Virus record (IMG/VR): IMGVR_UViG_3300020448_000003
Span: 1-64,000 of that record
Length of the DNA: 64,000 bases
Direction: 5' to 3' (one strand)
Source of the DNA: a virus
The position numbers and the translations under genes are program-made. The notes beneath the pieces were generated by a model. The model searched no databases and had not been told where the DNA came from. It saw only the letters and a program-made list of their open reading frames with translations. The stretch's first letter is position 1, and the number at the start of each line of letters is the position of its first letter. Positions 15,137-41,903 of this stretch are shown here, piece by piece.

Positions 15137-15144
15137 TATTTATG
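15137..15144 (-). promoter_or_regulatory. Late promoter variant CATAAATA
   Basis: NATAAATA about 25 nt upstream of the ATG at 15112. Confidence 0.65.
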
Positions 15145-17302
15145 TAAGGTCGAATTCATAATTAGTTGCGTCAAGTCTGATATTATTTCTAGTAAAGTCT
15201 GGGTTATTGTTGTCCCTATCAAAAGGAACTGAAGTCATATCAAATTTACCGACATTACTGTCCCACTTCAAAATACCAGATGTATCTTGTTGACTCGTTC
15301 CACCTGTTACGGTGAGGATTGCTAGGTTACTTGCAAGAGGTGAATTAGATGCTTGTGTCTGTTCTCCAACAGGACCTATACACACACATCTATACCTGTA
15401 ACCTGACATAAACGCTTGTGCTACTACTTGCAAGGAAGAACTATTCTGTCCTGTAAGGTTAGCCCAAGTAAATCCACCATCGGTAGATACTTGCCACTGG
15501 TAAGCGATAGTACCAGCTTCAGGTTCAATTACAGCAATCAAACTAAAAGTTTGTGTACCACCATCAGCAATAGTTGCATTGGTAGGTTGATTTGTAATTA
15601 CCAGACTAGGTGTTTGTGGTGTGCTACTACCTCCTTCACTTTCACCTCCACTAGCAGGAGGTGCACCAACACCTTGGTTGCTAGGTATATTTAGCGTCTG
15701 TTTTGATGAAAGACCAAATATGTATGGAAACTTAGGAGTTAGATAGCGATTTGGAACTACAGTAATAGTACTGGTTCCAGACATACTTGGATGAAATTGA
15801 CAAAAATAATATAAGTGTGATGGTGCAGTTTCGCCAACTGTAATTTCAATATAGGCACCAGCAGTACCAGGTGTGCCCACTTGAGTAACACCTGTTGTGT
15901 ATGTAGTACCAGCACCGTGAAAACCATCAGATGCGTCAGATAATAATAAATTATGATTCAGGTTGGAAGCATCAGAAAGTATGAACTTATATGTACTACC
16001 TTTAATAAATGTTAAGTTTGGATGAAGTGCTCCATCAATTCTATATCTGTTACCATCAGTTTCACTCGTAACTGTTACTGTATACTCTTTAGTCTCAGTT
16101 TGATCTTCCCATACTGTTGTAAAGTATGCAAAGGTTCCACTTGGAAATTCTGGAGTATTACAAAAACGACCATTATAAACATCTAAGTGTCTACCAGATG
16201 TATCAGCATTATATTCATAATCTTCCATTAATGCTCCTATAGGAGGATTAGCAAAAGTTGTACCATATGCAGGACGACCAGTAGCAATACTCATTTTTTG
16301 TTGATATCCAGTTTTCATAAGAACAACTGCTGATGTATTATCAGTCGGATTATTATATCCGTAAGGTCCATATACAGGATAACCATCAAATGCAAATCCT
16401 AAAATTTTAGAATGTCCATCAGGGTGACGCATATTATCCTGTCCAAACTGACTTTGACCATAGTAATCGTTATAACCAGACATTACTTGGTTTGTTTTCC
16501 AACAAGTCAACATATCAGCATCGTGATAATGATACTGTCCAGATGCTTCAGGATGTCCACCACAACCATCCTCACCAAATGTCACCATTGCCTCGTCACC
16601 AGCAGAAACCCAATGGAATCCTGAAGGAGGATCACCAACAGTGCTGCTCAGATTTAATTGATTACCCTGTCCTGTGTGATAATGACACCAATAGTGAAGC
16701 GTTGATGGTGCATTACTGGGTACTACCCAAGTTATTGTACGTGTGGTAGCAGAAGTAAACTGCATAACGTACTCCATCATAGTTTTAGTGACACCATCTA
16801 ATTTGTAAGTGACACCCATCATATAATGATCTCCACCAGCTAATTCTCCATCACTAGATGTACTGAACATCATTGGGTGGTGCATAGCATTGTAATTAGC
16901 ATTAGATGTTGCTGATTGATCAAAAGTATATGTTGCTCCAATCTTAATATCAAATGCTGGTTTTTCTATACCATTAAAATAAAATACACCTGTAGATTGT
17001 CCACTAACACTATCTACACCTACTGTAACTGACACATTATATGCGTCAGGACCATTGGCAGCACTAGCATTGTATATTGCAACTCCATTAGCACTCATAC
17101 CAATGATACCCACTGGTGTTGAACCAGAAGCAGTTGTATTTTCTCCACCCCTATACAAGAAAGAATGGTTAAAAGTATATGCTGTTGGTGTATATGGATT
17201 ACTTACATTAGGAAATGTGCCATAAGACACAGGAGTTGGCATCCCATCACCTGTTATGGTTAATATCTTCGTCGCTGGATTGTAAGTACCTTCTGCTGCC
17301 AT
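15140..17302 (-). CDS. YHYH-domain virion protein with two cupredoxin-like domains and an Ig-like domain
   Basis: GGHP...QYHYH, GFAFDGYPVYGPYG, LDVYNGRF; WCHYHTGQ and YFCQFHPSM; TNQPTN...YQWQ Ig-like domain. Confidence 0.8.
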   Translation of the reverse strand: MAAEGTYNPATKILTITGDGMPTPVSYGTFPNVSNPYTPTAYTFNHSFLYRGGENTTASGSTPVGIIGMSANGVAIYNASAANGPDAYNVSVTVGVDSVSGQSTGVFYFNGIEKPAFDIKIGATYTFDQSATSNANYNAMHHPMMFSTSSDGELAGGDHYMMGVTYKLDGVTKTMMEYVMQFTSATTRTITWVVPSNAPSTLHYWCHYHTGQGNQLNLSSTVGDPPSGFHWVSAGDEAMVTFGEDGCGGHPEASGQYHYHDADMLTCWKTNQVMSGYNDYYGQSQFGQDNMRHPDGHSKILGFAFDGYPVYGPYGYNNPTDNTSAVVLMKTGYQQKMSIATGRPAYGTTFANPPIGALMEDYEYNADTSGRHLDVYNGRFCNTPEFPSGTFAYFTTVWEDQTETKEYTVTVTSETDGNRYRIDGALHPNLTFIKGSTYKFILSDASNLNHNLLLSDASDGFHGAGTTYTTGVTQVGTPGTAGAYIEITVGETAPSHLYYFCQFHPSMSGTSTITVVPNRYLTPKFPYIFGLSSKQTLNIPSNQGVGAPPASGGESEGGSSTPQTPSLVITNQPTNATIADGGTQTFSLIAVIEPEAGTIAYQWQVSTDGGFTWANLTGQNSSSLQVVAQAFMSGYRYRCVCIGPVGEQTQASNSPLASNLAILTVTGGTSQQDTSGILKWDSNVGKFDMTSVPFDRDNNNPDFTRNNIRLDATNYEFDLT

Positions 17303-20300
17303 TAGTTGTCATCGAATATTTGATCAGGTGTGAAGTTATCAACAGTTGTTGCACCGATGTTGATTGTCAATGTAGCAGCGTTAGAGAGTGTAGGTGTAGC
17401 ACCTGTGGAAGTTAATCCAACTCTAAATTCATCGCCACCATCACCCTGAGTTGTGACAGGAGTAGTGTAAACACTTGATGTAGCACCGTCAATATTTATC
17501 CAAGTATCAGTTCCGTAATCCTTCTTCTGCCACTGATAATTGATTGTATTTCCACTAGGTGTTGTAGTTGCAACCACAGTAAACGAAGCAGTCTGACCTT
17601 GGTTAACAGTTACGTTAACTGGTTGAGAAGCAACTGTTATAAGAACTTCACCTTGTGCTTGAGATTCACCTGTTGGAATGTAATTAGGATCGTAGATATC
17701 AATACCACCGTTAACACCTTCACCTGTAGGTCCTAAGAAATCATCTGCAACCGTAGTAGAAACAGTAACTGTAGGTTGTACATAACCTTGACCAGCATTC
17801 TTAACATCAATACGTGCAAGACCAACAAGTGCTTTGATCTTACCACCGAAACCAGAGGAGGAAATCACATCAACGTTTGGACGAGTTGTATAACCATCAC
17901 CTGAGTTTGTAAGTATTGCTTCAGTAATACGTCCTTTCTCAATAGTTGCAAGGGCATCTGCATTACGTCCACGTACAGATCCTGTATACTCAAATGTAAT
18001 TAGTGAGTTAGAAGATTCAATAAGAGCAACTTCTCTTTCAAATTCTTCACCTTCAATGAATAAGTTATCTCCAGATTCAATAGGAGGTACGACTGTTGCA
18101 GCGATAACGTCAACATCAGAACCAACATAAGAGAATGCAACGAATGTAGAACCAGCACGAGGAACTTCAGAGAAGATAATACGTGAACCAACAAGTTCAA
18201 AACCGATACCTGGTTCCTGTATAACACCATTTAACTGACATATAATATTGTTCTCAGGTAAGATTGTATTTGACTGTACACCATCAGTTAGAGTCAATGA
18301 GTAGAACACTCCATTTAACTTCAAGTTGAATGAGTTACGTAATGAGTCAAAGTCGAATGAGATATCATCTAACTGTCTTAACTTACCTACGTACACACCG
18401 TGGAAACTAGATCCAGCAGCAGGAGCTTCAGTAAACTGTATATTATCTGAGAATGCAGTGAATGCGTTATTACCGCCTGGTGGTTGTAGAATACCATTCA
18501 CAAATATCATCATATGACCAGCTGGATCTGGGAAGTATGCAGTACCGTTTTCTTGAGTTAATTTAAAGTTTTTCTGTACTCCGTCAAACCCTCTAAAGAA
18601 CCTTCTAACACGACCACGTAAAGTCTTAGCAACAGAACAAGCACCTCTGAATCCATAATCACCGATGATCTGAGCATTTTTGACGAATGTTCCAGAAGTA
18701 TCACCCAAATGAATGATCGCACGAATACCAATTTGTTCAATTTTTTCGATTCTTCCATATGCACTCGTATTTGTAATAGTTACCGCAGCGATTCCTTGTG
18801 TATAAACACTTGGGAAGTTTGAACCAGCAGGAATCTTAGAAAGTGTATATGCAGCGTCACCAGCAACAACTGTTAAGTCATCACCAATAGCAGAGAATCT
18901 ACCTGTTTCATTTGCAAGGTATACGTGATTGTTATCAGCATCGTGCTCAGTAACAACAAATGTATGTCCTACAGACTGTCCAGCATTTTGTAATTGTAAA
19001 GTATCACCAACTTGGAAAGTATCAGTAACTCCAGTATCAGTAATTAACGCAGAATATGTAAATCTGGTAATTGTTGTTGTATGGAGATACTCACCAAAAT
19101 TAGGTAATTGATTAAATCCTTCAATTTCAATAATCTGATCAGTAACAGAACCGTAGATAACATCACCAGGTTCAAAGGAACCTACTACAGTAGATACATC
19201 ATATGTTACTCGACCTGATTGGTTATCAAGCAATGAACCATCATTATTTCTAACAATAAGAGCATTTGCTTTTCCAGAGTCTTGCTTACTGTATATTATA
19301 TCGGTAGCGATAAATTCACCCTGTTTAAAGTTGACGAGGATACGTTTATGTGGAGATGCTGATGCAGTAGCAGTTGCACCTGATGTAATACCCTCAAGAT
19401 TATCTGAATTTGCAAATGTTCCACCAGACATTATAACTTTAATATAAGTTGAATTATCAGTTGCAAGGACTGTACCAGTATTTCCTGTAGCACCTACCTT
19501 AACAATCTGCTCACCATTTTCAAACTTAACAGATCCACTTGTATGTGTTACTGGAACATATTCTACCTTGTATAAAACTTGTGCAAGGTTATCTTGTATT
19601 CTGATTACTTCAGCATATGCACCACTTGTACCACCGAAGAATATATCAGCAGTATTAATTCCACCTTGTATAGGTGTAGGAATATCTCTAGTACCATATG
19701 TGGTCTCAACACGATGTATACCGTTGTTAACACCAACAGAGAATGTATGAATTTGACCAGGTGTGCCAGGTGTAAGACTTGTTATTACATCTCCGTCAAT
19801 ATATTCTGTTAGGTATATTTTGTTTGTAGTTGTATTTGGGTGAATATAATATTGTGCTCTATCAAGTTCTGTAACAGCAGTACCAAGAACAATATAATTG
19901 ACCACATCGTATGCTTCAAATTTATGTCCAACAGAATCTATAGAACCATCAGTATTAACAGCAACACCAACGTCAATAGATTCAGTTAGATATACAGTAG
20001 GAAGTGAAGATCTCTCAAGACCTACCATTACTAAGTGGAATAATTGATGAATCTTATGTACAGCAGTTGCAGTAGGACGTAGTTCTCTATTAGTATAAGG
20101 AATCTCAGAGTTATTAGGACCTGGGTTGAGACAATCTTGCTCTACGGTATTAACCATATATTCTTTCACCGCTTCAGCGTGATATATCAAATATGTCCTA
20201 AAGACACCAGGATAAGCAACAAAGTTACCATTACTATCAAACCAACTATTAACTAATTGGATAGTTGCTATATTACCACCAGTAATGATGTCATATATCA

Positions 20301-23300
20301 TTGCCTTACGGATATTTGTACCAAACTCTATCTCAGCAGAATATCCTGAGTAATTATTGACTGACTTATAATATGCTTCTTTATCAATATACTCGTTGTT
20401 AAACATCAATAATTTTGCTGCCTGTCGATACATCTCAGGTGCACCACCCAATGTATCTTCAATTAAGTCTGCTAATGTTGCAGCAGCAGATGTTACGTTA
20501 TAACAAATACCTCCACCACTTAGAAGTGTATTACCAGATTGATACCCTACAGGTGTGACTGTCTTAGTAATACTTTGATTTACAAGGTAACTACCATTAC
20601 CAGCAGCAGCAGTTTGGATAACACCGATTGGTATAGAGAATAGTGTATTGATTGAAGACGCTACAACAGCACATTCACCATTACCAGCAGTGTCATATGT
20701 TATTGTTGTATCTCTTACAGAAGCACGTTCACCTGTTAGTGGCCATTCACCTGGTAGTGTTCTTGTAATATTATCTAAGTATGATCTTGGATTACTTGTA
20801 TTACTTGAATCAAATAGATTGACAGTAATATTCATCAACGTTGTAATTGCAGATGCTTGGTTAGAACAACGAGATGCTCCACCACCACCTTGTACCCAGT
20901 TGACTGCATTAGAACTAGCACTTACAAACGTATGTGTATAATTTCCACCATACTCTACAGCACCAGTAATAGCACTTATGAATGTATGTGGATACTGATA
21001 GATTGTTGGAGATGGGTTTACATTAACCTTAATACGTCCATTTCTAAATCTGATACCGTGTTCTTTAGCAGATACAAATTGATGTGTATAGTTTCCACCA
21101 ACACTAACTGAATTAGCAGCAGCACTAATGAATGTGTGAGTAGTTGTGTTTGTAGAAGGAGTTCTACCAGATGCTAGAACATTAACTGTAATAGTTGTGT
21201 CTGTAGCACTCTTGACTGTTAAAGGAACATCATATGCTCTATCTTTTTTCCAAGTAATGTTGGAAGCAGTAGAAGATTGATATGCGTGTGTAGTTGTGTT
21301 TGTGGAAGGTATCTCAGTAGATAATAGAACCTGTACATCAAATGTGTTTGTAGTTATATTTGATATCTCTAACCAAGATCCAGATGCAGGGTCAGTTGAT
21401 CTTGGATAACTATGATTTGTAGAATAATCATCAGCAGCACATTTGAATATTAATGAATTATCAGCAATTTTGATTTGATCACCATTTACAAATCCGTGTT
21501 GAGGAACACGAAGAGTCATTATACCTGTTGTTGGATTGTATGTTGCGTCAGTTGAGGTATGTGTTGTAGTTGTTGTTCTAGGATATGAATGAGTTGTTGC
21601 GTTATTATCTTCTAAACAAGTGAATGTGAAAGCGTTATCAGAAAGTTTAACGTGTGCACCAGCAACTAAACTATGACTACCGATTGTGATAACCATATCA
21701 CCTGTTGTTGGGTTATATACAACATTAGATGGACTGTATAGTTGTGTTGGAGATGTACCTACATTAACTTCAAATGTATCATTAGTTTTATTCTGAACAG
21801 GAAGATATATGTTATGAGCAGGGTCAGTTAAACGAGGATATGAATGAACACTACCATAATTATCCATTGAACAAGTAAAGTTCAATGAGTTAGTGTCAAA
21901 CATTACCTGATCACCATTATTAAATCCGTGAGCAACAGAAGTGATCACCATAATACCAGTTGTGGGATTATATGTTGCGTTTGTCGCAGTAAATGTAGAA
22001 TCTCCAACTTCTAAGACTTCTAATGACTTACCACTAGCATAATCTGTTGAACGAGGATATGACTTGGTGCTATTAGAACCAGTTGATACACCAACATTAA
22101 CTGTTATTGTAGATCCAGATCTTGCTTGTACAGCAACGTTAGTTCCAGATACAGGGTCAGTTGATCTTGGATATGAGTGATTAGAACCGTGATTATCAGC
22201 ATCACAAGTAAATGTTACAGCACCGTCAGCGATAGTAACTGTAGAAGTAGCATAACTAATTCCATTTGTTTTAGCCCATACAAAACTATGTGTAGTCTGG
22301 TTTGTAGAAGGTGTGTTTTCTAGAACCTGTACATCAAAGTTATCACCACTAACATTTGATATTGTTAACCATTTACCACTAGCAGGATCAGATGGTCTTG
22401 GATAGTAATGATTTGTTGCGTTACTATCTTCACCACAAGTAAATGATAGAGAGTTATCTGCTATTAATATCTGATCTCCATTACTAAATGGATGACTTGT
22501 AACGGTTATTGTCATCACACCTGATGTTGGATTGTAAGCAACATTAGATGCAGTATGAGTTGTAGGAGCAGTGAGGGTATTAGACCCAATATTTAATACA
22601 AGATTTCCTGTGATAGGATCGTATGTTGTTCCTGAACCAGCAGTATGACTTCCACCAGTTGATGCAACAATAGCGTTATTTACACCACTTACATACGTAT
22701 GAACTCCATTACCATAAGGGCATAAGAATGATACAGCATTATCAGGCATTCTGATATGTCTACCAGGAGTAAGATTGTGATTACCAATATCTAAGAATAG
22801 ATTACCAGTATCTTCTTCGTAAATAGCAAAACTTACATCGTGAGTTCCATTAGATGTTGTACCAACGTTTACAGTGAATGTATCATTTGTTCTTGCAGTA
22901 ATTGGTAGAGTTGCACCAGAGGCTGGATCCCAAGGTCTTGGATATGATTTATTAGATTGATTACCATCAAATGTACAATTAAATACTAATGAATTTGGAT
23001 CAAGAGTAATACTATCACCTACCTGAAGATTATGTCCTGCTTTTGTAATAACTAGATTACCGTTTGTTGGAGTATATGCTGCATCTGTAGGAGTTAACTG
23101 TCCAGTTGTTGCACCGTTATTATCAATAGTAATAGTATTATCGTAGACAGCATATCCTTCGGTATATCCATTAACAGTAACCAACTGTTGTCTCATTACC
23201 TGAATAGCAATGTCTCTTGCTTGTTCAAAGATATATTTAACTTGTGCTGCTTGTGAGTTGATGTGTTGTACAGCATTACTAATAGTGATATAGAAATCAC

Positions 23301-26300
23301 TAGCATACCAAACAATGTTATTACCACCGTGTGCTAAGTTAAATGTAACTGCTTCTAGAACATCAATTACATCATCAACACAAGATTGATAACCATATCC
23401 ACCAAATGTAAGACTAGAATATTGTGCCAAACCACGACCTACAGCAGTAGTGGCGATAAATCTTAAATTATTTTTAATTTCATTAGAAGCATCATAATAT
23501 TTGTTACCAGCTTCAGTTGATGTTGCAAATCCACCACCAGCGTTATAATCGTAATCAGGACGTGATTCTATACCACCTCCACCACCACCAAGTGCTCCAC
23601 CTGTTTCATACTCAGATTCATAGGGATTAAACCCAAGTTTGTTCTGGATGGCGAGGATTGCCATATCACGTGCCATTCTCATAGCATAGATGGTTTCATC
23701 TGCTTGATCTGTTACGTGCTTCAGACCCATATCACTATTCAAATATAATTCAGATGCTTCGTATACTTTTTCATTAACACTAAATCTTAAATCGTGAATA
23801 ACACCATCTAAAATATCAACAATATCATCTTCACAATGAACCTTACCACCAGGTACTCTGAAATTATAATGTTTGAATGCACTTTGTTTAACTGTCAGAT
23901 CAACTGCTTCTTCAGCAATAGTACGTTTGTTAGCATTGATGAGATCAGCAGCATCTAAAGCACGATGTGATCCTGTGTAGATCTTTGGATCTGGAGGATT
24001 GAATGTACTTTCTGTTATTACGTTACCTGTTAAGTCGTAGTTAACTGCTGCATCATATGCTTTTCTAAATGCTGGTAAGTCAGTGTATTGGAACTGGAAG
24101 AAGTCATCAATAGTATCTGCATTTGTAGAACCAGCAGGAAGATTAGCAATATTCTCATTACGAGATATTAATAAGTTTTGTAGTGCTTTTTCCATCAACC
24201 ACTTAGCATATCCAATCGCTTCTAACATTGGAAGTAACTCGTGTTCTACATCACCTATAAATCCAGCACTATTCAAGTATGAATCAATAATTCCTTGAGC
24301 ATTAGAGTTACCACCAGTGATTAAATCTGTAGCAATAGCAGGAATAATATGATCCCTAATATCTCTTACACACTTCTCACGACCAGGTGAACCACCAGGT
24401 ATATAAAGTTGGTTTACATCTACGTTATTGATAGTAACTGTATATCTTTCTTCTAACCAGTAAACAACCTCATCAGCAATACATTTACGGTTGAAGTATA
24501 GTAAATCAGCACCATCTCTAAATCTATGTCCTGTAGGACCTAATACATCAAGAAGGTCATCCATCAATGACATAATGTAAGTTGTGATGTTACTACCAGG
24601 TGTAGCACTGAAGTAATTTGGAACACGAATACGTGTTGTGTACTCACCAGTTAAATCAGCTTGATCTTTTGTAATTACATCAATACAAAGTTTAGCAACT
24701 TCTCTCCAAACATACATTGATTGAAGTAGTTCTTCATTAACGTGTGCTAATTCACCTTGTTGGTTAGCAAGATATCCTCTACCAATAATAATACTATTGT
24801 AATTACCACCATATCTAAGATCTTTATAGATCGCAGGAATGATATACTCATAAGTATCTCTTAAACACTTATCTGTACCCTGTGTTGATGTACCAGTATC
24901 ACCAGGTATCACAAAGTCTGGATACTTAGCTTTCATTCTACCTACTGCTTCTTCAGCAATCCAGAATTTATTTGTTTCAATAATATCTGCACAATCTCTT
25001 TCTACCTGACGACTAAGATCAACCTCTTCAGTCATTATTTCACTTCTCCACAATTCTATACTATCAGCAGATGCAGTAGAAGTTATGGTTTGCTGGAATG
25101 TAGCATATATTTCACCTTTAATAATAGGAATAGGTGCCTCACCATCAAATCCAAATGATAGATTTAGATCAGAAGAATCATATACTGCTGATGGTATAAA
25201 GGATGCTGTATATTCAGCAATTCCCTTCTTGACCATAAAGTTTTCCATATGACCAGTGAATCCTGTAGAGTTAGAAGCATTTGCACCGATCTTAATTGGT
25301 AAGTTACCATAATTTGTATTATCTGTATAACTTCCTGCTAATGTTCCACCAACAAATAATCTTGTAACACCAGTAGAACGAGTTACAGCAATATGTGTCC
25401 AAGTATTTGCAACTACTCCTGTAGATGTAATTCTATCAGTATTACCTACATTCCAACGAATTTGATTATTATTAAGAAGTAGATAGAATGCACCTGTATC
25501 AGATGTACTACTACGGAAGTCTAGTAACATCTGTACTCCACTAACAGAAGTTGCTTTTATCCATAGTTCTATAGTAAAGTCACCAGCAGCAACACTACCA
25601 TCACCTAGAGCAAGTTTTTCAGTTGCAGGATGTGTTAGATGTGCACTACCATTGAAATCTAATGATCCAGTACCAACAGCATAATCTAGATTATCTACAG
25701 TAACACCAACATTAGTTAATAGACTGTTAGTAATGTATTCTCCAACAGTAAATGCTCCACTAGGATCTTTACTGTAAATCCATTTACTACCACCATTAGA
25801 ACCAATAACCGATGCAGTATTTCCAGATGTTATACCTTTAACAGTATCACCAAATACGAAGAATCCACCTGTTGACTTATTCTTATAACTGTGTTTAACA
25901 CACTTAATAGTCTCAGCATCTTGGAAAGCATATGCTGGTTCAACTCTTTGTAAGTTAAAGATAGACCATTGATATGTTGTTTTATCTGCACCAGTAGGAT
26001 CTTGAAGAGTATCAGTAATAATCCTAAAGAAGTTAGTTACAGCAGATGTTTGGTTTACACAAGCGTTATCACCTACTGGATATGAAAGTCTACCTTGTGA
26101 GTAATCTGCTTGAGGTGCAGTCTGAGTTACTGCTGCTTGGAATGCTTCTCTTGTACCAGGTGAAGCGGTTGTACCAAGAGCATTGATAAGAATGTCCATC
26201 AATGTAGTGATGGTTGATTGTACAGCAGCACAATTACCAGGATCATTAGTAATTGTATTATCAATAAACTGAACCCAACCGTGTGAAGTATCTACTTTAG

Positions 26301-29300
26301 CAACAGCATTATTTTGTATAATCTGAACTGCCATTGTTTTTGCTTTTGTGAAAGCATTAACAATAGTGTTTCTATCACCTGAAGTAACACCATAGTGAAG
26401 AATACGATCAGTTGCTTCCCATATGAAGTCATTACCACCGTGTGCAGTGTTATAACCTAATGCTTCAATAACATCAACAATATCAGATAGACAATGCTCA
26501 TCTCCACCTGAAACTGTATAGCCAGGATTCTGTAACTTAGCATAATGTAATGACTCGTGAGCAATATACCATTTGTTAGCAAGTAATAGTGTTCTAGCAT
26601 CACCGTGACTATTATCAGTAACCACATACTCAGGAGTTACAGTTGTATCTCTCCACTGTTGTTTTGTAGTGTGAGCTGGAACTATAATTTCCATATTAAT
26701 ACACTTAAGAGCAAGATCTCTTGCTTTCTCCATTGCATATACAGTCTGTGCTACTTGCCCATCAACGTGATATATTGAGTTTCCTTGAACGTAAGTATTA
26801 GCAATATCCCAAACTTCAGAGTTACCATCAAACTTAACTTGCCAAGCAATCATATTAAGAACATCAACTATATCATCAATACAATTTTGATTACCTGTTG
26901 GAATAGTAAAGGAGGGGTAGAAAGCCAACATTAATCCCACGGCTTCTTCAGCAATAAACTCAGCGTTCTTTTCCAATGCCTCTGCTGCGTTAAATGCACG
27001 AGTGTCAGGTTGGATTCTCATCGATGAGTTAGTGAAGTATAATTTCTTCAAACGAATATCTGTGCCAGCAGCAAAATCAGTACCAGTTAAATTGTCATAA
27101 CGTATTTCTTGGTTACGTACGTTTTCAAAGTCTAAGAAGTCTTGGTTATTTGCAGCATCTGTATAAAGTTCAGTTGGGTTAATAACTGTTTCTGATATGT
27201 TATCAAGAATAACATTAGGATATGTAATAGAAGGAACTCTCTGGAATACAAGACCAAAGAAAGTAGATGAAGGGGATAGATCAACAGTATCAATAATCTG
27301 ATTAGATACTGCATCTTGGTAAGGAGAAATACTAATAACTGTTGCTGCAATCTTAGAACGTGCAGAATAAATTATATCATTGAACTTAATTTCAAATTCA
27401 CCAGTTTCATATGCAGCAGTACCAGATGTACGAGAAACAACTAAGTCATCAGATATAACACCATCTAATAAGTTATTCTCTTCAATAATAGCAAACTTAC
27501 CAGACAAGTTAGTAATTCTTTCACCTTGTTCGTAGATAGTCTTAGAAGTAAGATTGGTTTTAGCAGAGAGTACGGCATTAAACCCAGTTGAACTGGCGAG
27601 GACGTTATCGTTAATTTGGAAACTACCAACTACACTGATAACATCAATATAGTCAACACCAGAATCAATTACTACAGCAGTACCTTCATTTTGTAGAGAA
27701 CGAACTGTATTACCTAATAATGGGAAGATACCACCAATAGTACTAAATGTCATTCTAGTAATGACAAGTTGAGAGAACTGTATAGATCTGAATTTAATTC
27801 TAGAAGGTGCTTTAGGTGCTTCTGAGAATACTATAGAAGGTCCTGTTGTAGAGAATGAAGTACCTGGTGACTGTGCAACACCATTTAACAGAATGAACAT
27901 CTGGTCTTCTGTTGCAGTTACTGATGAACCTTCAACATTGAGAGGGAACTGGGTTTTAATCCCATCAAATTGGTCAGAAATATTATCTACCTTTTTAACA
28001 ATAGAAGTTAGAATTTCCTCAGAGTTAGTAAGTCTCTTCTGTCTGAATAATACTTCAGTATTATTAAACTCAGTGTATATTGGTTGTGCGTTAGCAAATG
28101 ATGTAATCTGGTTAATATTAGTGAAACTATTGATATTAACTTCTTTAACAAGGTCAGATACAACTTTTCTTCCAGAAATATCCTTACCACCAGTAATTGC
28201 TAGTTCACCAAATAAGTTGAATCCAACAGGGTGATTAGTTTCAAGAACTGGTTTTCTCCACTGGTTAATAGGTGTTTGAGACTTAATAACGTAAGAGAAG
28301 TTCTGATAGAAGTAACTATCTTGAATTTTTTGAACAATTTCTGATGGTTTACCAACGTCATCAATAAACTGACCTGGTGTAGTGGTTAGAGATGCAATCT
28401 CAAGTGTACCTCTCGCAATAGAAAGGTTATCAATCAAACCAGAAGCACGAGATACTTGACCTGTTACACGTTCACCAGCTAACCATACACCATCATAGTT
28501 CTCAAGTTTAAGGATTCTAGGTCCGATCTGCCAACCTTCGTTAGTAGAAACATAACCAGTAGCAGATGCAAGTTCAAGAGATGAACCCTGATAAACAAGT
28601 TCACCCTCTAAGAAACGAGATGTTTCAACGATAGCAGTTGCTTGACCACCAAATACCTCAGTAAGAAGTACCTGTCTACCTTCACCTTGTGTCAAGAATG
28701 TGATGTAGGAACCAGATTCAGCATCTAACTGTGTTAGAGAGATACGTAACTGGTCAGATTCAAGACCATTTGCCTCTCCAGCAATAGCATAGTATGTTTG
28801 AGTAGAAGATAAACTGACCAAACCAGCAGAACTTGGTTTTGGAAGAATACCGATTGTAGATCCAAGATCCTCTGCTCTTAACTGTACTTGTGCTCCGTTT
28901 GTTATACCGTGTGGGAAGTTAAACTGTAGATATCCCAAATCAACGTTAACAACGTAGTTAAATTCTGATTTAAGTGTAACTGAAGGTTCAGAACTGTATC
29001 CTGAGCCAGGATCCTTGATAATAATCTCAGAAAGTCTATTATTTTTAACTATTGCATCAGCAGCAGCACCTTGTCCTCCACCACCTTCGATTACAACAGC
29101 AGGAGTTGAGGTATATCCAGAACCTGGATCAGTTATCTTAATTTGTGCTAGTAAAGCGGTATTAAACAGTTGAAGGTTTACGGGGAATGTTATCTCAGGT
29201 TTTAGTGTATAATCGTGAGAGTAACCGAAACCAAATTCATTGTTCTTAAGTTTCTTGATCTTACCGATTGATCTACCTTGTAAGAACACAGATGCACCTG

Positions 29301-32300
29301 AACCCTCAGAAGGTATAACAACATCAAGAATACCACCAGAACCAGCAAGTAGAGGTCCTAAGATGCCAGGTATAGCATCGATGTCAATAGATGCAGTGGT
29401 ATATCCTTTTCCAGCAGATGTTAGTTCAACAGCAGTGATAACACCTTCAAAGTCTCCATCATCAGTAACTGTAATGTTACAAGTAGCACCTTCACCATCT
29501 CCACCGATGGGAACGTTATAATAGATGCCATTTACGTATTCTGTACCACCATTAGTGATACGAACCTTTTCAATTTCTCTGTTAGATGAAATATCACTAA
29601 CAATAGGTAATTTTTGGTAGAATCCACCTGGATTTACCAGCTTGATGCTCGCAATAGGTCCAATTGCTTTTGGAGATGTTGTACTGTAAGAACTACGAGG
29701 TAGACCGAATTCATCGTCCCCCACAGCAGCAGTAGTTTTTTCTGGTTCATTTAATAAAGCGAAGTCGAATGTTTTTCCAGCATTGCTGGTTCCTGTAACA
29801 GTAAATGTTCCTGCATAAGGTGATGGTATAACGTCAATAAACGATCCTTCACCAACAGGGGAATTAGATGGAAGAGTTCTTGACGGATCAAAATAGTATG
29901 AGATGTTAGTAACATCCTCATTAATTATAAATTTAACCAACGGAGTTGGTGAATCATCATCAGTGAAACCTGGTGTACCCTCTCTAATGATGTTAATGAA
30001 AGGATATTCCAATTTAAACTGGTTATCCTTAGAGAAAGATAAGTAATATCCTAAGTTTGAATTGTCATCAAGGTCAAATATGTACTGATGACCTCTAACA
30101 AATAAGAATTTAGGATGTTTAGCGTATATATTAACATTAGATACTGAAGATCCACTTCCAGAGAAGGTTGGATCTTGTACAGCAGTGCTTCTTAAATTAT
30201 ATGTAAAGTCTCTTGATGTAAATACCTCTTTAATAAAGAATGATCCGTTATATTCGTTTGAAGAGAAGTTTTCAGTGAATATAATGTCATTAACCTCAAA
30301 ATTATGTCTGCTAGTAGCAGAACAATAAACAATATCTGTATTTGCAAGTGATCCTGTGGGTATAACGTCCTTACTAAGTGTTGCAGCGATACTAATTTTC
30401 TTAACACCAAGCAATCCACCAAATGTTGCAACCTTTCCAGTAGCATCAACAGAGAAAGTTAAGTTAACAGCATCAGCATCAATGGTATCTCCTTTAATAA
30501 ATGATGAATCAGCATAGATTTCTTCAATTTTAATAGTGTAATCAGATGCTGAGAATGGTTTCCAAGAAGCAAATTGATTTAAAGTACCACCACTGTAAGA
30601 AGTATTGGCAAGATCTATTATGAAAATACCTGAAGCAGATGTATATGCCCAGTTTACGTTACCATCAGTTGTTGTACCACCAGTATGAACAGGTGCAATA
30701 GTGCCAGATGTAGCAGTAGATGATGCAGTGTACCACTTTTTATCGTTATAAACGATGTCACCAGTAGTATATGGTGTGTTAGTTACCCATTGTGGGTATG
30801 TACTTTCTTCTACAAAACTCTGACTTAACTCGTTTACATCATTAACAGTAGATTTTAGTAGTTTTGTGTTATCAAATGTACCAATAATCTTACCAATCTT
30901 AACAAAGTTTGCTCCAGTATCAACAATTACACCATATGCACTGACTACATCAGCACCACCAATAACAGAATACTGTTGTAATGTAGAACCTTTAGTAAAT
31001 GTTGCATTTTGATTGAATGTAAGTGTTTTTACAAGGTCAATACTAGAGTATCTTGCATCTCTAAAGTAGAATTTAGGTATAACAGTAGTTGTTAGAAGTA
31101 GTTTCTTACCACCAGGTGTTGGAATAGTTGCAGTTCTACTTGCAAATGTTTCATCAGTAGATGTAAATACCAGTGAACCTGGTACGTGGTTTGCAACAAC
31201 ATCACCATAGTCAAGGATTTGAATACCAGCAGGACCTATAGTCCAAGGACTAACAGTAGTAGATTGGGTATTAAACGTATAATTGCTGTTGGAGGCGGTT
31301 GTTAAGGTATGTCCTGTCTCTACATTGTTTAGAGTGAATGAACCAAGTTTTGTTTTATCTTTATCAAGTTTGTATATGAATGCTTGAGTTGTAGTATTTG
31401 TACCAGTTACTAGAGCTGGTGTATATGCTTCAGTTCTTGTAGCACTTTGTGATACAGCAACGTTATCGATCCATCCTATCCAACTATCAGAGGAACTTGG
31501 AGTACCTTTAGGTCCTATAGTTACATCTTTTAAATTAACATCAGCTGTTGTACTTGTATTGTTTATTGCTTCAACACCATTAACATAAACTCTATAAACA
31601 TAATTACCAACACCTACACGTTCTTTACTAAGTGCAACGTGTACAAATGCTTCAGCATTAAAAGGTGTTAAGTAAGTAGTAGCAGTTGAGTATATTGTTG
31701 ATCCACCAAGAACTAAGAATACTTTACCAGCATTAGCACCAGAAGAAGCATCAAGACCAACCTTAACTTCATTAGCAACGTTGTCTGTTACAGTGTAGAA
31801 ATGAGGTGTTGTATTGTTTGCTGCATACTGTGTGGAACCTAATGCCCAGAAACCTTCAACAGTCCAAGATGTCGCAACATCAGCACCATATAGTAATGCC
31901 AAGGAGTTTGGAGCATCTAATTTAACAGCAGATGTACCAGCATACTTTTTAGTTTGATCTATTACAGCATTACCAGTTGCATACCACGCTTTATTAGAAC
32001 CAGTGGCAAGAGTGTCATTATATGTGTCTTCTAAAAGATTATCAGCAGTATCCCAGTTTAATATTGCTAGTTGTACAGATTCTACTTTATTACCAGCAAC
32101 AATAGTATCACCTGAGTTATCGCTAGAAACTACAGTTGCTGCATATCCAATACCATTTGTTTCAGATACAGAAGCAGAGTTAATAATATTTCCAGTATTC
32201 CAAGAAATCTTACTGGTTACAGATTCTACATTGTTGAAATCTCTTTCAACGTTACAAGAAAGGTCAATATTACCAAATACATCAAATTTAACACCACCAT

Positions 32301-35300
32301 TCTTACAACTTGCATAAGTTCCAGTAGGAACAAACATCTTACTTACAACAGTAGAAGTATATACGTCATTATCAAATTTTGTATATAAAACACCGTAGTT
32401 TTTACCATCAGTATTAACAGCAGTGGCAGTTACATAAACTGATCCATATTCGTCAATAGACATTGTTGGATCTGTAAACTTGTAACTACTATTGGTTATA
32501 ATTTTAGACCACTGAACTTCAATAGTAACTCCATCATAGAATGTCTCACCAAGAATAATATCACTAGAACCAGCAGGATCACTGATACCACAGAATAAGA
32601 ATGTATCATTTGCTTTCCAAAGTAACTGATGTAGATGTTCGTTACCAGAAGCAGAAGCAATTTTACGTTTTTCCATTACTGATCCATCAAGATCAAGTAA
32701 TGCAACCCACATATCATCAGGACTGAGTGAGTTTGAATCAGTGTAACCACCAATCATAACTCTACCAAGTTGATCTAAATGTATACTTGTAGCATAATCT
32801 CTACGTGTAGTACCAGATATACCAGCAATATCACGTTGCCATTGAACAATACCATCAGGATTGTTAGCATTATCAAAACCTGACTGATATTTGATAACAA
32901 CTATATCAGGGTTGTATACAATACTTGTTGTATTTGGAGATAGTTCACCAATAACGTAAATATTGTGTGGATTTGAGTTTTCAACATATAATGACTTAAA
33001 ACTAAGGTTTTTAGTTCCCGACGCTGGTAATGATGGAACTAAAGCACGTTTCCAAAGAAGACGACCATCACTATTAAACTTAGCGAGCATACCAGATGTA
33101 TCACCATTAGGTACAGAACTATGTCCACAAACATAGAATGTACGATCATCTGCTACTTGAATATCATTAATAGAAACGATTCCAGACTGCTCTTTTAAAA
33201 ATGCTAGGAAATATGATGCTTTTTTAAATCTTTGTGGATGTGATACTCTAATCTGTGGAGGATTTGTAGGACTATATCCAGAACCAGAGTTAACAATATT
33301 AGCACTATTAACAGCACCAGCCTCTGTTCTATTCAAAGTAAGTTGAAAATCTTGACCTTGAGAGGATATTAGTTCATATGTTGGAGGAATATCATCAGAG
33401 TAACCTAAACCTGTCTGAGTTATAGTAACATTTTCAACACCAGGTATAACTTTAACTTTGAATGTCTTATTGGTAGAATCTAGTATTGGACTCTCTTGAA
33501 CAATAATTTCATCACCAACACGCAATTCGTGTTCTGTTGGAGTTGTAATACGTCCATATGGCATATCTCCTGACATATAAGAACTGTATCCCTGTATGGA
33601 AAGACCAGCAACAGCACTTACCTTTGCAGAAGCACCAAATCCTTGTGTATCATCATTATTAAAGAATAATTTATCACTAACTTTATAAGAAATACCTGGA
33701 TTTTCAATAACAAATCCGTCTATCTGAGCATCTTCAAATTTAGTAGTGGTTTCAATATCGATATCAACTTCAGATCTTGTAGATACTTTAGGGTAGTAAT
33801 CAAATAATTGTAATACAGGTTCTTCTGCAATAGTATAAGGTGTAGTATCTTCTAAGTTATTGATAACACCATCACGGTTTGTATCTTCAATTTCAAAGAT
33901 TAACTCAAGACCATCTTCAGTTACAAGAATATCAGTGTCTTGGTTTGGTTGACGATCAATATCTATGTCAACATTTTCATAAGGATCTCTAAATCTAACA
34001 ACATCAGCAGGAATATTTGTTTGAACAGCGTTTTGACTGTAGTTCCAAGAATCAGGTTGTGAGTATAATTGAGGACCGCATATGTATGGGAATACTGGAT
34101 TACCAGCGTCTGATGCGTCAATAGAGATAAAGTATGCGTATACACCTTCAGGATATTCAGGAGTCTTACAAAAACGACCATTGTATTGATCTAAGTCACC
34201 TTCTTGGAAAGCATACTCATAATCTTCGATAAATGATCCTGCTGGATAATCTGATAGTAGCGGACCATCTACTCTAACTGGATTTGGGTTGGTTGCAGTA
34301 TCAAAAACAAGTATTGATTTAACTCTATATGAAGATCTAATACGACGTACACCAGATGATTGGTTTGTAGCGTCAATGTATCCATAAGGACCGTATATTG
34401 GGTTTCCATCAAATGCCCATCCTAAAATAGGAGAATGTAAAAATCCTGTTGATAATTCTTGTAATTGCTGAGTTGACTGATTTTTAAATACGTTATCACC
34501 TAAAACATATCTTAATTGCTTTGGATCTGATACGTGTGCATATTCACCACCATACTGTGTGTTATATCCTGCAAACACATAACCACGTGCTCCATCAAAG
34601 TTTGATCCAAGTTCTTGCTGGAGGTTACGAGTCCACTCAAATACATTAGCAGTGAATGTTCCTTGAGAACCAACTGCTTCAAGACGAATAGTAGTGCTAC
34701 CTGTAGTATATCCAATACCTCTGTTTACAACACTAACACCAATAACTTTACCTCTATCTTCTCCAACACTACCTATTGATGCTTTTGCAACAGCACCATA
34801 TCCATCTCCACTAATGATAATCTCTGGAGCAGTCGTATATCCATTACCAGCAGCAATAATAGCGATAGATACGATTCTACCGTTAATAATAATTGGTTGT
34901 GCTACAGCACCTTCACCTGAGTTTAACTTAATTGTAGGAGATGATGTATATGAAGATCCTGCTGATGTTATTGCTACAGATTGAATCGGACCTCTAACAC
35001 TTGCAGTAGCAGTTGCACCACTACCTCCACCACCTGATATAGAAACGTCAGGTTGTGATGTATATCCTTGACCTGGTGATTCAACAAGAACTCTTGATAC
35101 AACACCATTTGTTATAACAGCAGTCGCAGTAGCACCAAATCCACCTCCACCAACAATAGAAACTAGAGGAGATGATGTATAACCAGTACCACCAGTGTCT
35201 ACTTCAATTTCACTTAAAGCACCGTTAACAGTAACACTAGCAGCAGCACCTGTACCGCCACCACCAGTAATCTCAATAACAGGAGGATTTGCAGCGTCAT

Positions 35301-41369: not shown

Positions 41370-41903
41370 TTACCCTGACAATACAGTGGGAGATCCATAC
41401 GTTACTCTACTACTACAAGGGTATCCAGAATATCCTCCTGATGGTGCACCAAGTCTATCAGTTACTCTTCCAATCGGAAGTTTAAAAGCTAATACAGTTT
41501 TAGTTGTTGCAAATAATATACGTGGATGTCCGACACCACCACAATCTTCTACAGTTAATAGACTACAGACTATTGGTGTAGGTATAATACACATTGCTTT
41601 TCCGCACGGGCACAAATAATTGATTATATTTGTCGTGGGTGACATATGGGGTGTGAACGTATCACCCATAATCATAATAGGCAATCTATTTACCTGTACC
41701 AATGCTCTAGCAGGATTCAACGCACTCAAAGGCACCAAAGGAGTGGGTGGCCATAAGCAAGTTTTATTCTTTACTTTGATTGACAGTAATATAGGTGGTG
41801 AGTTACACGCTTGTGTACTATGAATGGTACTAGGAATCGGGAATCCGTGTCCTGAGTCAGGGAGTCCGTTATGATTCGCTACTGGTAGTACCTTAAATCC
41901 CAT
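41370..41903 (-). CDS. PAAR-like spike tip protein (gp5.4-like), Cys-rich
   Basis: GHG..P, VQVNRLPIMIMGDTFTPH, TVLAFKLPIGRVTDRLG, CSSRVTYGSPTV; position next to gp25. Confidence 0.75.
   Translation of the reverse strand: MGFKVLPVANHNGLPDSGHGFPIPSTIHSTQACNSPPILLSIKVKNKTCLWPPTPLVPLSALNPARALVQVNRLPIMIMGDTFTPHMSPTTNIINYLCPCGKAMCIIPTPIVCSLLTVEDCGGVGHPRILFATTKTVLAFKLPIGRVTDRLGAPSGGYSGYPCSSRVTYGSPTVLSG

What the first reader, a model, noticed from the sequence alone, without database searches (positions are those of the whole stretch)
23185..27000. Tandem phycobiliprotein-like domains with conserved bilin-attachment CxxD in baseplate gp7
Seen: six ~110-aa helical repeats, for example DCADIIETNKFWIAEEAVGRMKAKYPDFVIPG...DKCLRDTYEYIIPAIYKDLRYGGN, GREKCVRDIRDHIIPAIATDLITGGN and RALDAADLINANKRTIAEEAV...RVPGGKVHCEDDI. 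All six have Cys-x-x-Asp: CIDD 26881, CLSD 26491, CLRD 24865, CVRD 24370, CEDD 23833, CVDD 23380. A seventh copy near 20140-20435 lacks the Cys. Established, from memory: phycocyanin/allophycocyanin subunits read roughly R..A...I..NA..IV.EA......P.L..PGGN......AC(L/I/A)RD....LR..TY...AG(G/D). Cys84 there carries the bilin and Asp87 coordinates its pyrrole nitrogens. Order and spacing of these elements match. Inference: a structural virion protein may be covalently chromophorylated. I know of no established description of this.
Basis: partly seen in the sequence, partly recalled or inferred. Interest (0 to 1): 0.92.

Follow-up and report, generated by a model that had tools for sequence, protein, structure and literature searches.

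The report
Phycobiliprotein-derived domains in cyanophage baseplate protein
The giant baseplate protein of this marine cyanobacterial virus holds seven domains that are true relatives of its host's light-harvesting pigment proteins and keep their pigment-attachment residues. Such domains occurred only in phages that also carry the pigment-attaching enzyme CpeT, so it can now be tested whether the virus particle carries pigment; that has not been shown.

Summary
A 7141-aa ORF (window 17302-38727, minus strand, in the gp7 slot of a T4-like cyanomyovirus) holds six ~113-aa helical domains with Cys-x-x-Asp at the stated coordinates, plus a seventh Cys-less copy.

They are true phycobiliprotein (PBP) relatives:
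- Pfam PF00502 scores 45.6 bits, above its cut-off.
- The AlphaFold model matches PBP beta chains (Z 12.8 for a core; Z 16.9, rmsd 2.0 Å, with helix H).

New here:
- Helix H, carrying a second, beta-153/155-type Cys, comes later in the chain, so domains are nested (R2 sits in R1's G-H loop).
- In 1538 copies from a global library the canonical C-x-R-D motif is kept in 92%.
- In 28 complete cyanomyovirus genomes the domain and the T-type bilin lyase CpeT co-occur without exception (24 have both, 4 have neither).
- In six phages cpeT lies just upstream of a giant PBP-domain tail protein.

Bilin attachment itself is untested. Only two of this protein's six sites keep the Arg. The X-Y hairpin is absent.

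This scan already found the same family in at least 18 other genomes. I found no paper describing it.

Verdict: real, a new variant of a known fold. Pigment-bearing virions are plausible (~0.5).

The parts
17302..38727 (-). Giant ORF of 7141 aa in the gp7 (baseplate wedge initiator) position
   Evidence: ORF list and translation. PHROG 'virion structural protein' and 'baseplate wedge subunit' families. Flanked by gp6-like and gp25-like genes. Relatives annotated 'baseplate wedge initiator'.
26683..27006 (-). PBP-like domain R1 (helices A-G), aa 3908-4015, CIDD at aa 3949
   Evidence: HMM E 6e-41. PF00502 19.7 bits alone. AF2 model residues 12-115 plus 329-347 align to PBP beta 33-177, Z 16.8.
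26299..26619 (-). PBP-like domain R2 (helices A-G), aa 4037-4143, CLSD at aa 4079, inserted in the G-H loop of R1
   Evidence: HMM E 9e-32. AF2 model residues 140-290 align to PBP beta 31-177, Z 16.9, rmsd 2.0 Å, 138 aa.
26176..26241 (-). Helix H of R2 with beta-153/155-type Cys (aa 4166, DPGNCAAVQSTITTLMD)
   Evidence: Helix 268-289 in the model. Cys invariant in 20-25 orthologues. A sub-threshold HMMER alignment puts it on PE-beta 'gDCSALASEV'.
26002..26061 (-). Helix H of R1 with beta-153/155-type Cys (aa 4223, NACVNQTSAVTNFF)
   Evidence: Helix 329-347 in the model. It is included in the PBP alignments spanning model 5/12..347. Cys invariant in orthologues.
25231..25617 (-). Laminin_G_3 / concanavalin-like lectin domain between the first and second pair
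   Evidence: PF13385, E 2.4e-19.
24664..25011 (-). PBP-like domain R3, aa 4573-4688, canonical CLRD at aa 4621. It is the most PBP-like copy, with a full-length B-E loop.
   Evidence: PF00502 22.6 bits alone, above the cut-off. AF2 pLDDT 89, pTM 0.84. Z 12.8, rmsd 2.3 Å over 117 aa to PBP beta 25-152.
24538..24594 (-). Putative helix H of R3, Cys-less (GSNITTYIMSLMDDLLDVLG)
   Evidence: Sequence pattern like the other H helices. Inference, not folded.
24163..24534 (-). PBP-like domain R4, aa 4732-4855, canonical CVRD at aa 4786
   Evidence: HMM E 2.5e-32; alignment.
23632..23973 (-). PBP-like domain R5, aa 4919-5032, CEDD at aa 4965
   Evidence: HMM E 2.6e-37.
23176..23508 (-). PBP-like domain R6, aa 5074-5184, CVDD at aa 5116
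   Evidence: HMM E 3.9e-38.
20893..23130 (-). Array of about seven beta-type repeats (F-x-C-x-x-D ... SYPR..DPASG), probably inserted in the G-H loop of R6
   Evidence: Motif list and sequence. No Pfam family. The insertion topology is inferred by analogy with R1/R2.
20443..20868 (-). Three helix-H-type segments, each starting with Cys (aa 5954 RCSNQASAITTLMN, aa 6019 ECAVVASSINTLF, aa 6075 ICYNVTSAAATLAD). Candidate H helices of R6 and R5, plus one unassigned.
   Evidence: Sequence. Same pattern as the two folded H helices. Not folded (no structure jobs left).
20131..20436 (-). PBP-like domain R7, aa 6098-6199. It lacks the Cys-x-x-Asp segment.
   Evidence: HMM E 1e-24. Alignment shows the motif deleted. 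Also found.

Best explanation
The gp7-position baseplate protein contains seven domains descended from a phycobiliprotein, closest to beta subunits.

Anatomy. Each domain keeps the globin-like helices A-G. Helix H follows either directly or after another domain has been inserted into the G-H loop, so some domains are nested. The N-terminal X-Y hairpin that PBPs use to pair alpha with beta is absent.

Retained sites. Six domains keep the helix-E Cys and Asp that in PBPs carry the bilin and hold its pyrrole nitrogens. Five helix-H segments begin with a Cys at the place of beta-Cys-153/155. Five of the seven domains keep the Asp-39 equivalent that serves that second site.

Proposed mechanism (inferred, not shown). 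While the protein folds in the bilin-rich infected cell, bilins are attached to some of these cysteines. Candidate enzymes are the phage's own T-type lyase CpeT, whose cellular homologues serve beta-153/155, and host lyases. Attachment could also be autocatalytic. The baseplate would then carry pigment.

Proposed role (speculative). Light-induced change in these domains would gate the baseplate or fibres, giving the light-dependent adsorption known for S-PM2 and P-HM1/P-HM2.

My odds: PBP homology and fold about 0.95; covalent bilin on at least some sites about 0.5; a light-sensing role about 0.25.
For: Homology
- PF00502 scores 45.6 bits against a cut-off of 22.2.
- The family profile against the PDB returns almost only PBPs, with the best E-value 8.7e-4.
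- hhalign against 15 CpcB sequences gives E 9.6e-5 over 105 columns. It aligns C to C82, D to D85, D to D39 and N to N47.

Fold
- The AF2 model of R3 has pLDDT 89.
- All top Foldseek hits are PBPs.
- VIA-align gives Z 12.8 for the core. With helix H it gives Z 16.9 and rmsd 2.0 Å over 138 aa, and alignments spanning model 12..347 show nesting.

Site conservation
- In 1538 copies from the 150 best representative proteins, Cys is kept in 96.6%, Asp in 99.1%, Arg in 93% and C-x-R-D in 91.6%. The query profile itself was of the C-x-D-D type, so the Arg is not profile-driven.
- The two helix-H Cys are invariant in 20-25 orthologues.
- In S-PM2 and Syn1, each PBP-like domain of the giant tail protein pairs a Cys-84-type site (three or four K-C-x-R-D, one C-V-D-D) with a helix-H Cys. 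One example, PECQNIATTIEGYF, resembles CpcB [14 protein letters not shown].

Link to a lyase
- In 28 complete cyanomyovirus genomes, 24 have both the domain and CpeT, 4 have neither, and none is discordant.
- cpeT lies 0.6-2.5 kb upstream of a giant PBP-domain tail protein in S-PM2, Syn1, Sf-FR1, S-CAM3, S-RIM44 and ACG-2014e.
- This genome encodes two tandem cpeT-like genes and a haem oxygenase.

Light
- P-HM1/P-HM2 do not adsorb in the dark, and S-PM2 adsorption needs light independently of photosynthesis. P-SSM2 adsorbs in the dark (PMC6628666).
- The first three carry the domain and P-SSM2 does not.
Against: - No experiment shows bilin on any phage protein, and I found no report of pigmented virions.
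- In this protein, four of the six helix-E sites have Asp or Ser where PBPs have the propionate-binding Arg (CIDD, CLSD, CEDD, CVDD). Most copies also have a B-E loop shorter than in PBPs.
- Some orthologues have lost the helix-E Cys (L019: Ala and Tyr), and R7 lacks the motif entirely.
- The Arg-77/78 pair that binds propionates in CpcB has no counterpart in R3.
- The co-occurrence with CpeT was not corrected for phylogeny. The second panel of 10 genomes was chosen from hit lists.
- Bilin reductase and haem oxygenase genes do not track the domain. P-SSM2 and S-SSM7 have both genes but no domain.
- The light correlation rests on three lineages.
- The two-domain model has only moderate confidence (pLDDT 74, pTM 0.53).
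Confidence: 0.5

Rival explanations
1. Pigment-free scaffold. A captured phycobiliprotein gene was reused as a compact helical building block and insertion platform for giant baseplate and fibre proteins. The Cys, Arg and Asp persist for folding or packing reasons, and the domains never bind bilin. CpeT co-occurs only because both genes were inherited together in one large cyanomyovirus lineage, and it acts on host phycobiliproteins.
For: - The domains are used as hubs: other domains are inserted in their G-H loops, and arrays reach 34-35 copies.
- The X-Y hairpin is absent.
- R7 and some orthologues lack the Cys.
- Four of the six sites here lack the Arg.
- Bilin synthesis genes do not track the domain.
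- The co-occurrence was not corrected for phylogeny.
Against: - About 92% retention of the full C-x-R-D triad over 1538 very divergent copies is hard to explain without a ligand site. So is the invariance of the helix-H Cys, and of the Asp-39 and Asp-85 equivalents.
- cpeT sits next to PBP-domain tail genes in six phages from at least five lineages, four of them assigned to separate genera and one unclassified.
- The published literature treats the role of phage cpeT as unresolved (PMC3037559).
Confidence: 0.35
2. The conserved cysteines form disulfide bonds or bind a metal that stabilises the extracellular virion protein, not a bilin.
For: - Cys is rare in the protein (38 of 7141) and concentrated at conserved positions.
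- Complete domains have exactly two conserved Cys each.
- The neighbouring beta repeats also carry one conserved Cys each.
Against: - In PBPs the two sites are far apart: the beta-84 and beta-155 bilins lie roughly 35 Å apart (from memory of C-phycocyanin structures). The predicted fold superposes on PBPs at about 2 Å rmsd. An intradomain disulfide therefore looks unlikely.
- Virions assemble in the reducing cytoplasm.
- The flanking Arg and Asp are conserved with the Cys, as in the bilin site.
- Cys-Cys distances could not be measured here.
Confidence: 0.07
3. The domains bind a bilin or another tetrapyrrole non-covalently or only transiently. Possible purposes are protection against photo-oxidation or sensing host-derived pigment, rather than serving as a covalent photoreceptor.
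For: - The PBP fold and the Asp residues are retained.
- The phage carries a haem oxygenase.
- Variable Arg and loop lengths suggest altered pockets.
Against: - The attachment Cys is itself the best-conserved feature.
- The linkage is to a lyase, an enzyme of covalent attachment.
Confidence: 0.08

Closest known systems
Phycobiliprotein beta subunits (CpcB, CpeB, cryptophyte PE/PC beta; Pfam PF00502)
   Same: - Sequence match above Pfam's cut-off.
- Same helix A-H globin-like fold (Z up to 16.9, rmsd about 2 Å).
- Cys and Asp at the Cys-82/84 and Asp-85/87 positions.
- Asp-39 and Asn-47 equivalents.
- A second Cys at the start of helix H, as at beta-153/155.
- C-x-R-D is dominant across the wider phage family.
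   Different: - No X-Y hairpin, so no classical alpha-beta pairing.
- Embedded as 7 (elsewhere up to 34-35) copies in multi-thousand-residue virion proteins.
- Domains nested through the G-H loop.
- The B-E loop is usually shortened.
- The Arg is replaced by Asp or Ser in four of the six sites here.
- Located in a baseplate, not a phycobilisome.
- No pigment has been demonstrated.
ApcE (core-membrane linker) phycobiliprotein-like domain
   Same: A PBP-type domain embedded in a large multidomain protein, with a loop insertion within the globin fold. As I recall, ApcE attaches its bilin without a separate lyase.
   Different: ApcE has one PBP domain followed by linker repeats and sits in the phycobilisome core. 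Here there are many PBP domains in a virion protein, with whole domains inserted in the G-H loop.
T4 gp7 baseplate wedge protein
   Same: Gene position after the gp25-like and gp6-like genes. Relatives are annotated 'baseplate wedge initiator'. There is a weak PF23786 match near aa 690-730.
   Different: About seven times longer than T4 gp7 (1032 aa, from memory). Most of the length is added modules: YHYH, Laminin_G_3, PBP-like domains and beta repeats.
Cyanophage CpeT (T-type phycobiliprotein lyase homologue), an auxiliary gene of unresolved role
   Same: It is not a homologue of the domain but its proposed partner. It is present in every genome tested that has the domain, and it lies next to PBP-domain tail genes in six phages. 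T-type lyases serve beta-Cys-153/155, the kind of site found at the start of helix H here.
   Different: Its action on any phage protein has never been tested. The two copies in this genome are short and divergent (146 aa, 25-33% identical to other phage CpeT).

Membership tests
Phycobiliprotein family (Pfam PF00502) | Sequence match to the family profile above the curated threshold | tested here: met
   45.6 bits against a cut-off of 22.2 for aa 3880-5200. R3 alone scores 22.6 bits and R1 19.7. Most homologues carry a precomputed PF00502 hit.
Phycobiliprotein family (Pfam PF00502) | Globin-like fold with helices A, B, E, F, G, H | tested here: met
   AF2 models. VIA-align gives Z 12.8 for the core, and Z 16.9 with rmsd 2.0 Å over 138 aa including helix H, to PBP beta residues 31-177. 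This is a prediction, not an experimental structure.
Phycobiliprotein family (Pfam PF00502) | N-terminal X-Y helical hairpin that mediates alpha-beta pairing | tested here: not met
   Sequence and most structural alignments start at PBP residues 25-35. Repeats follow each other with no room for about 30 extra residues.
Phycobiliprotein family (Pfam PF00502) | Helix-E Cys-82/84 with Asp-85/87 three residues on | tested here: met
   Six of the seven domains have it. It is aligned to C82 and D85 of CpcB and PE. R7 lacks it.
Phycobiliprotein family (Pfam PF00502) | Arg-84/86 between Cys and Asp (C-x-R-D), which binds a bilin propionate | tested here: inconclusive
   Present only in R3 (CLRD) and R4 (CVRD). 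The other four sites have Asp or Ser. In the wider phage family, 93% of 1538 copies have Arg.
Phycobiliprotein family (Pfam PF00502) | Beta-type second site: Cys-153/155 at the start of helix H, with Asp-39 | tested here: met
   Five helix-H-type segments begin with Cys (aa 4166, 4223, 5954, 6019, 6075). Two of them were folded and superpose on PBP helix H. The Cys is invariant in orthologues. The Asp-39 equivalent is present in 5 of 7 domains. The residue-level match to Cys-153 rests on a sub-threshold alignment and on comparison by eye with CpcB.
Phycobiliprotein family (Pfam PF00502) | Covalently bound bilin chromophore | not testable with these tools
   This needs co-expression, Zn-blot and mass spectrometry, or virion spectroscopy.
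Phycobiliprotein family (Pfam PF00502) | Assembly into (alpha-beta)3 discs of a phycobilisome | not tested
   Unlikely, given the missing X-Y hairpin and the virion context. No computation was made.
T4 gp7-type baseplate wedge protein | Sequence match to a baseplate wedge profile, and the gp7 gene position | tested here: inconclusive
   PF23786 scores 20.9 bits, below its cut-off of 27. PHROG 'baseplate wedge subunit' families match parts of the protein. The gene follows gp25-like and gp6-like genes. Relatives are annotated 'baseplate wedge initiator'.

The most novel reading that the evidence does not exclude
The cyanomyovirus particle is itself a biliprotein photoreceptor. Phage CpeT is a dedicated maturation enzyme that attaches bilin to the beta-155-type (and perhaps 84-type) cysteines of PBP-derived domains in baseplate and tail proteins. 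Light absorbed by these pigments gates baseplate or fibre deployment, which would explain light-dependent adsorption and the long-unexplained presence of cpeT in cyanophage genomes.
Probability: 0.22. Interest if true: 0.97.

Novelty: new variant of a known kind. Interest (0 to 1): 0.84.

Why it matters
Two long-standing puzzles in cyanophage biology become directly testable.
- Why most T4-like cyanophages carry a CpeT lyase homologue without the rest of the phycoerythrin operon. Sullivan et al. 2010 call the role 'unresolved' (PMC3037559).
- What makes adsorption of S-PM2 and P-HM1/P-HM2 light-dependent yet independent of host photosynthesis. PMC6628666, citing Jia et al. 2010, attributes it to unidentified light-sensitive receptors or tail fibres.

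A pigment-bearing virion would be the first viral particle with a built-in light sensor. It would also be a new use of the phycobiliprotein fold outside light harvesting.

Even if the domains prove pigment-free, two findings stand. A host antenna protein has been captured and amplified to 7-35 copies, with domains nested through the G-H loop. The family is also large, with at least 1361 representative proteins. Both are notable for protein evolution and for annotating giant phage proteins. Small complete domains could also be candidates for new fluorescent tags.

Tried and rejected
- The search for related loci with the seven-repeat alignment failed: no stretch was conserved enough.
Distant sequences for alignments therefore came from IMG/VR loci around P0033 relatives.
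- The profile of R2 plus helix H was weak against the PDB (E 0.32) and against CpcB by hhalign (probability 13%). The match of the helix-H Cys to Cys-153 therefore rests mainly on the structural superposition.
- hhalign of the core profile against CpcB gave only 58.5% probability (E 9.6e-5). Homology rests on Pfam, the fold and the consistency of hits together, not on one number.
- I considered whether phage bilin-synthesis genes exist to feed these domains, and rejected it as a general rule. Fe_bilin_red and haem oxygenase genes do not track the domain.
- Pfam CpeT missed the divergent copies in P-SSM7 and S-ShM2. A protein query found them.
- I considered an intradomain disulfide and think it unlikely on PBP geometry. 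I could not measure distances because model coordinates are not exposed.
- Gasper et al. 2017 on phage CpeT is not held. I cite it only as a reference listed in PMC10452541.
- Four literature searches found no description of PBP domains in phage structural proteins. The library is incomplete, so this is not proof of absence.
- Cluster look-up of ten array proteins gave no names.

Full report
**What is there.** The window comes from a T4-like cyanomyovirus: a 99-kb IMG/VR record, about 53% complete, with relatives mostly among Synechococcus phages. One ORF on the minus strand (17302-38727) encodes 7141 aa. It follows gp25-like and gp6-like baseplate genes and precedes further wedge and connector genes. 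It therefore occupies the gp7 slot, and relatives are annotated 'baseplate wedge initiator' or 'structural protein'.

They sit in the same column of six ~113-aa helical repeats that are 17-34% identical. An HMM iterated over 37 homologous giant proteins finds seven copies here (E 1e-25 to 6e-41). No other copy exists in the 99-kb record.

**Are they phycobiliprotein relatives? Yes.**
- Pfam PF00502 scores 45.6 bits on aa 3880-5200, above the cut-off of 22.2. R3 alone scores 22.6 bits.
- Profiles of the repeats searched against all PDB sequences return almost only phycobiliproteins, best E 8.7e-4. The phage Cys aligns with the 'C-L-R-D' of phycoerythrin and phycocyanin.
- I fetched 15 CpcB genes from cyanobacterial genomes. 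hhalign gave E 9.6e-5 over 105 columns, pairing phage Cys with C82, Asp with D85, a further Asp with D39 and the most conserved Asn with N47.
- An AlphaFold2 model of R3 (30-sequence alignment, pLDDT 89, pTM 0.84) hits only PBPs at the top of Foldseek. It superposes on PBP beta chains, residues 25-152, with Z 12.8 and rmsd 2.3 Å over 117 residues.

**Helix H, a second cysteine, and nesting.** The core model lacks helix H. Following a lead in earlier notes of this scan, I looked downstream. I found segments such as DPGNCAAVQSTITTLMD (aa 4166) and NACVNQTSAVTNFF (aa 4223) after R2. They resemble the CpcB end '[22 protein letters not shown]'.

I folded aa 3896-4250 with a 20-sequence alignment (pLDDT 74, pTM 0.53). 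This gave two kinds of superposition on PBP beta chains:
- Model 140-290 on residues 31-177 (Z 16.9, rmsd 2.0 Å, 138 aa). This is R2 with the first H helix.
- Model 12-347 on residues 33-177 (Z 16.8, rmsd 2.1 Å, 136 aa). This is R1 with the second H helix.

R2 is therefore inserted in the G-H loop of R1, the loop that holds Cys-153/155 in beta subunits. The two helix-H cysteines are invariant in 20-25 orthologues, including one (L019) that has lost both helix-E cysteines.

By the same pattern, R3, R4 and R7 have Cys-less H helices. Three Cys-led H-type helices (aa 5954, 6019, 6075) follow a ~750-aa beta-repeat array after R6. That suggests the array sits in R6's G-H loop.

**How well is the pigment site kept?** In this protein only R3 (CLRD) and R4 (CVRD) have the canonical Arg; the other four have Asp or Ser. 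Most copies also have a shortened B-E loop, though R3 has the full PBP length.

The wider family looks different. A profile search of 1.84 billion representative proteins found 1361 carriers, with up to 34-35 copies each. In 1538 copies from the best 150 proteins:
- Cys is kept in 96.6%.
- Asp is kept in 99.1%.
- Arg is kept in 93%.
- The full C-x-R-D is kept in 91.6%.

My query profile was of the C-x-D-D type, so the Arg is not an artefact of the query. Such retention of a polar triad across very divergent copies argues for a ligand site rather than mere packing.

**Link to a bilin lyase.** This genome carries two tandem cpeT-like genes (about 13 kb beyond the window end) and a haem oxygenase just beyond it. 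No bilin reductase is present in the fragment.

I tested 18 well-known complete cyanomyovirus genomes:
- 14 have the domain: P-HM1, P-HM2, P-SSM4, P-RSM4, P-SSM7, S-PM2, Syn9, Syn19, Syn33, Syn1, S-ShM2, S-SM1, S-SSM5 and MED4-213. The same 14 have a CpeT homologue; two were found only with a protein query.
- P-SSM2, S-SM2, S-SSM7 and S-CRM01 have neither.

Ten further genomes, picked from the two hit lists, all have both. The total is 24 with both, 4 with neither and 0 discordant. The first panel alone gives a naive Fisher p of 1/3060, uncorrected for phylogeny.

In S-PM2, Syn1, Sf-FR1, S-CAM3, S-RIM44 and ACG-2014e, a long-type cpeT lies 0.6-2.5 kb upstream, on the same strand, of a giant PBP-domain 'tail protein'. 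In the S-PM2 and Syn1 proteins each PBP-like domain pairs a Cys-84-type site (three or four K-C-x-R-D, one C-V-D-D) with a helix-H Cys.

T-type lyases serve beta-Cys-153 (as summarised in PMC10452541). The role of phage cpeT is described as unresolved (PMC3037559). Bilin reductase and haem oxygenase genes do not track the domain.

**Light.** Liu et al. 2019 (PMC6628666) report that P-HM1 and P-HM2 do not adsorb in the dark. They report that P-SSM2 does adsorb in the dark. They also note that S-PM2's light-dependent adsorption does not rely on host photosynthesis, and that the cause is thought to be a light-sensitive receptor or tail fibre. The three light-dependent phages carry the domain and P-SSM2 does not. 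That is three lineages: suggestive only.

**Verdict.** The chromophorylation part is unproven but has become a specific, cheap-to-test hypothesis with a named candidate enzyme.

The main rival is a pigment-free scaffold whose link to CpeT is phylogenetic inertia. A disulfide or metal role for the cysteines seems unlikely on PBP geometry, but I could not check it on coordinates.

The same family was already reported by this scan in at least 18 other genomes. Automated Pfam tables already flag PF00502 on these proteins. I found no paper describing it.

Noticed in passing
window 20893-23130 (-), aa ~5200-5945: About seven repeats of a beta-type unit with the motif F-x-C-x-x-D ... (N/S)HSYPR..DPASG, each with one conserved Cys. 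No Pfam family matches. The array lies between R6 and the Cys-led H-type helices, so it may be an insertion in a PBP G-H loop.
   Followed up: partly
own genome beyond the window: G000:C1:77061-77951 (-) and 64225-64620 (-): Two tandem, divergent cpeT-like genes (146 aa each) and a haem oxygenase gene. No Fe_bilin_red gene is present in the 99-kb fragment.
   Followed up: partly
L086 (S-PM2 NC_006820 161500-179000) and L087 (Syn1 NC_015288 17500-35000): A conserved cluster: T4-GC 730 hypothetical, cpeT, 2OG-Fe(II) oxygenase, giant PBP-domain 'short tail fiber protein' (T4-GC 734), gp12, tail collar. The 2OG-Fe(II) oxygenase between the lyase and its possible substrate is unexplained.
   Followed up: partly
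L086, record positions 168556-173383 of NC_006820: Sixteen tRNA features are annotated inside the 11-kb giant CDS of S-PM2. The CDS translates without stops, so this looks like an annotation offset in the record.
   Followed up: no
window 34117-34560 (-), aa 1390-1537: A YHYH domain (PF14240, E 5e-29) in the N-terminal half of the giant protein. The downstream 720-aa ORF (15140-17302) matches PHROG families that also match this part of the giant protein.
   Followed up: no
P0040 (6382 aa), P0041, P0042 from the representative library: Metagenomic proteins made almost entirely of PBP-like units (34-35 copies, nearly all K-C-x-R-D-x-G), in ~110-150-aa tandem units. Small array proteins such as P0163 (844 aa, 6 copies) have ~110-aa units with apparently no helix H. 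No source gives an informative name.
   Followed up: partly
L019:8981-9775: One orthologue has lost both helix-E cysteines (Ala and Tyr) but keeps both helix-H cysteines. This hints that the beta-155-type site is the more constrained of the two.
   Followed up: partly
window 41370-41903 (-): A PAAR-like spike-tip protein gene (PHROG 281) lies upstream of the gp25-like and gp6-like genes.
   Followed up: no
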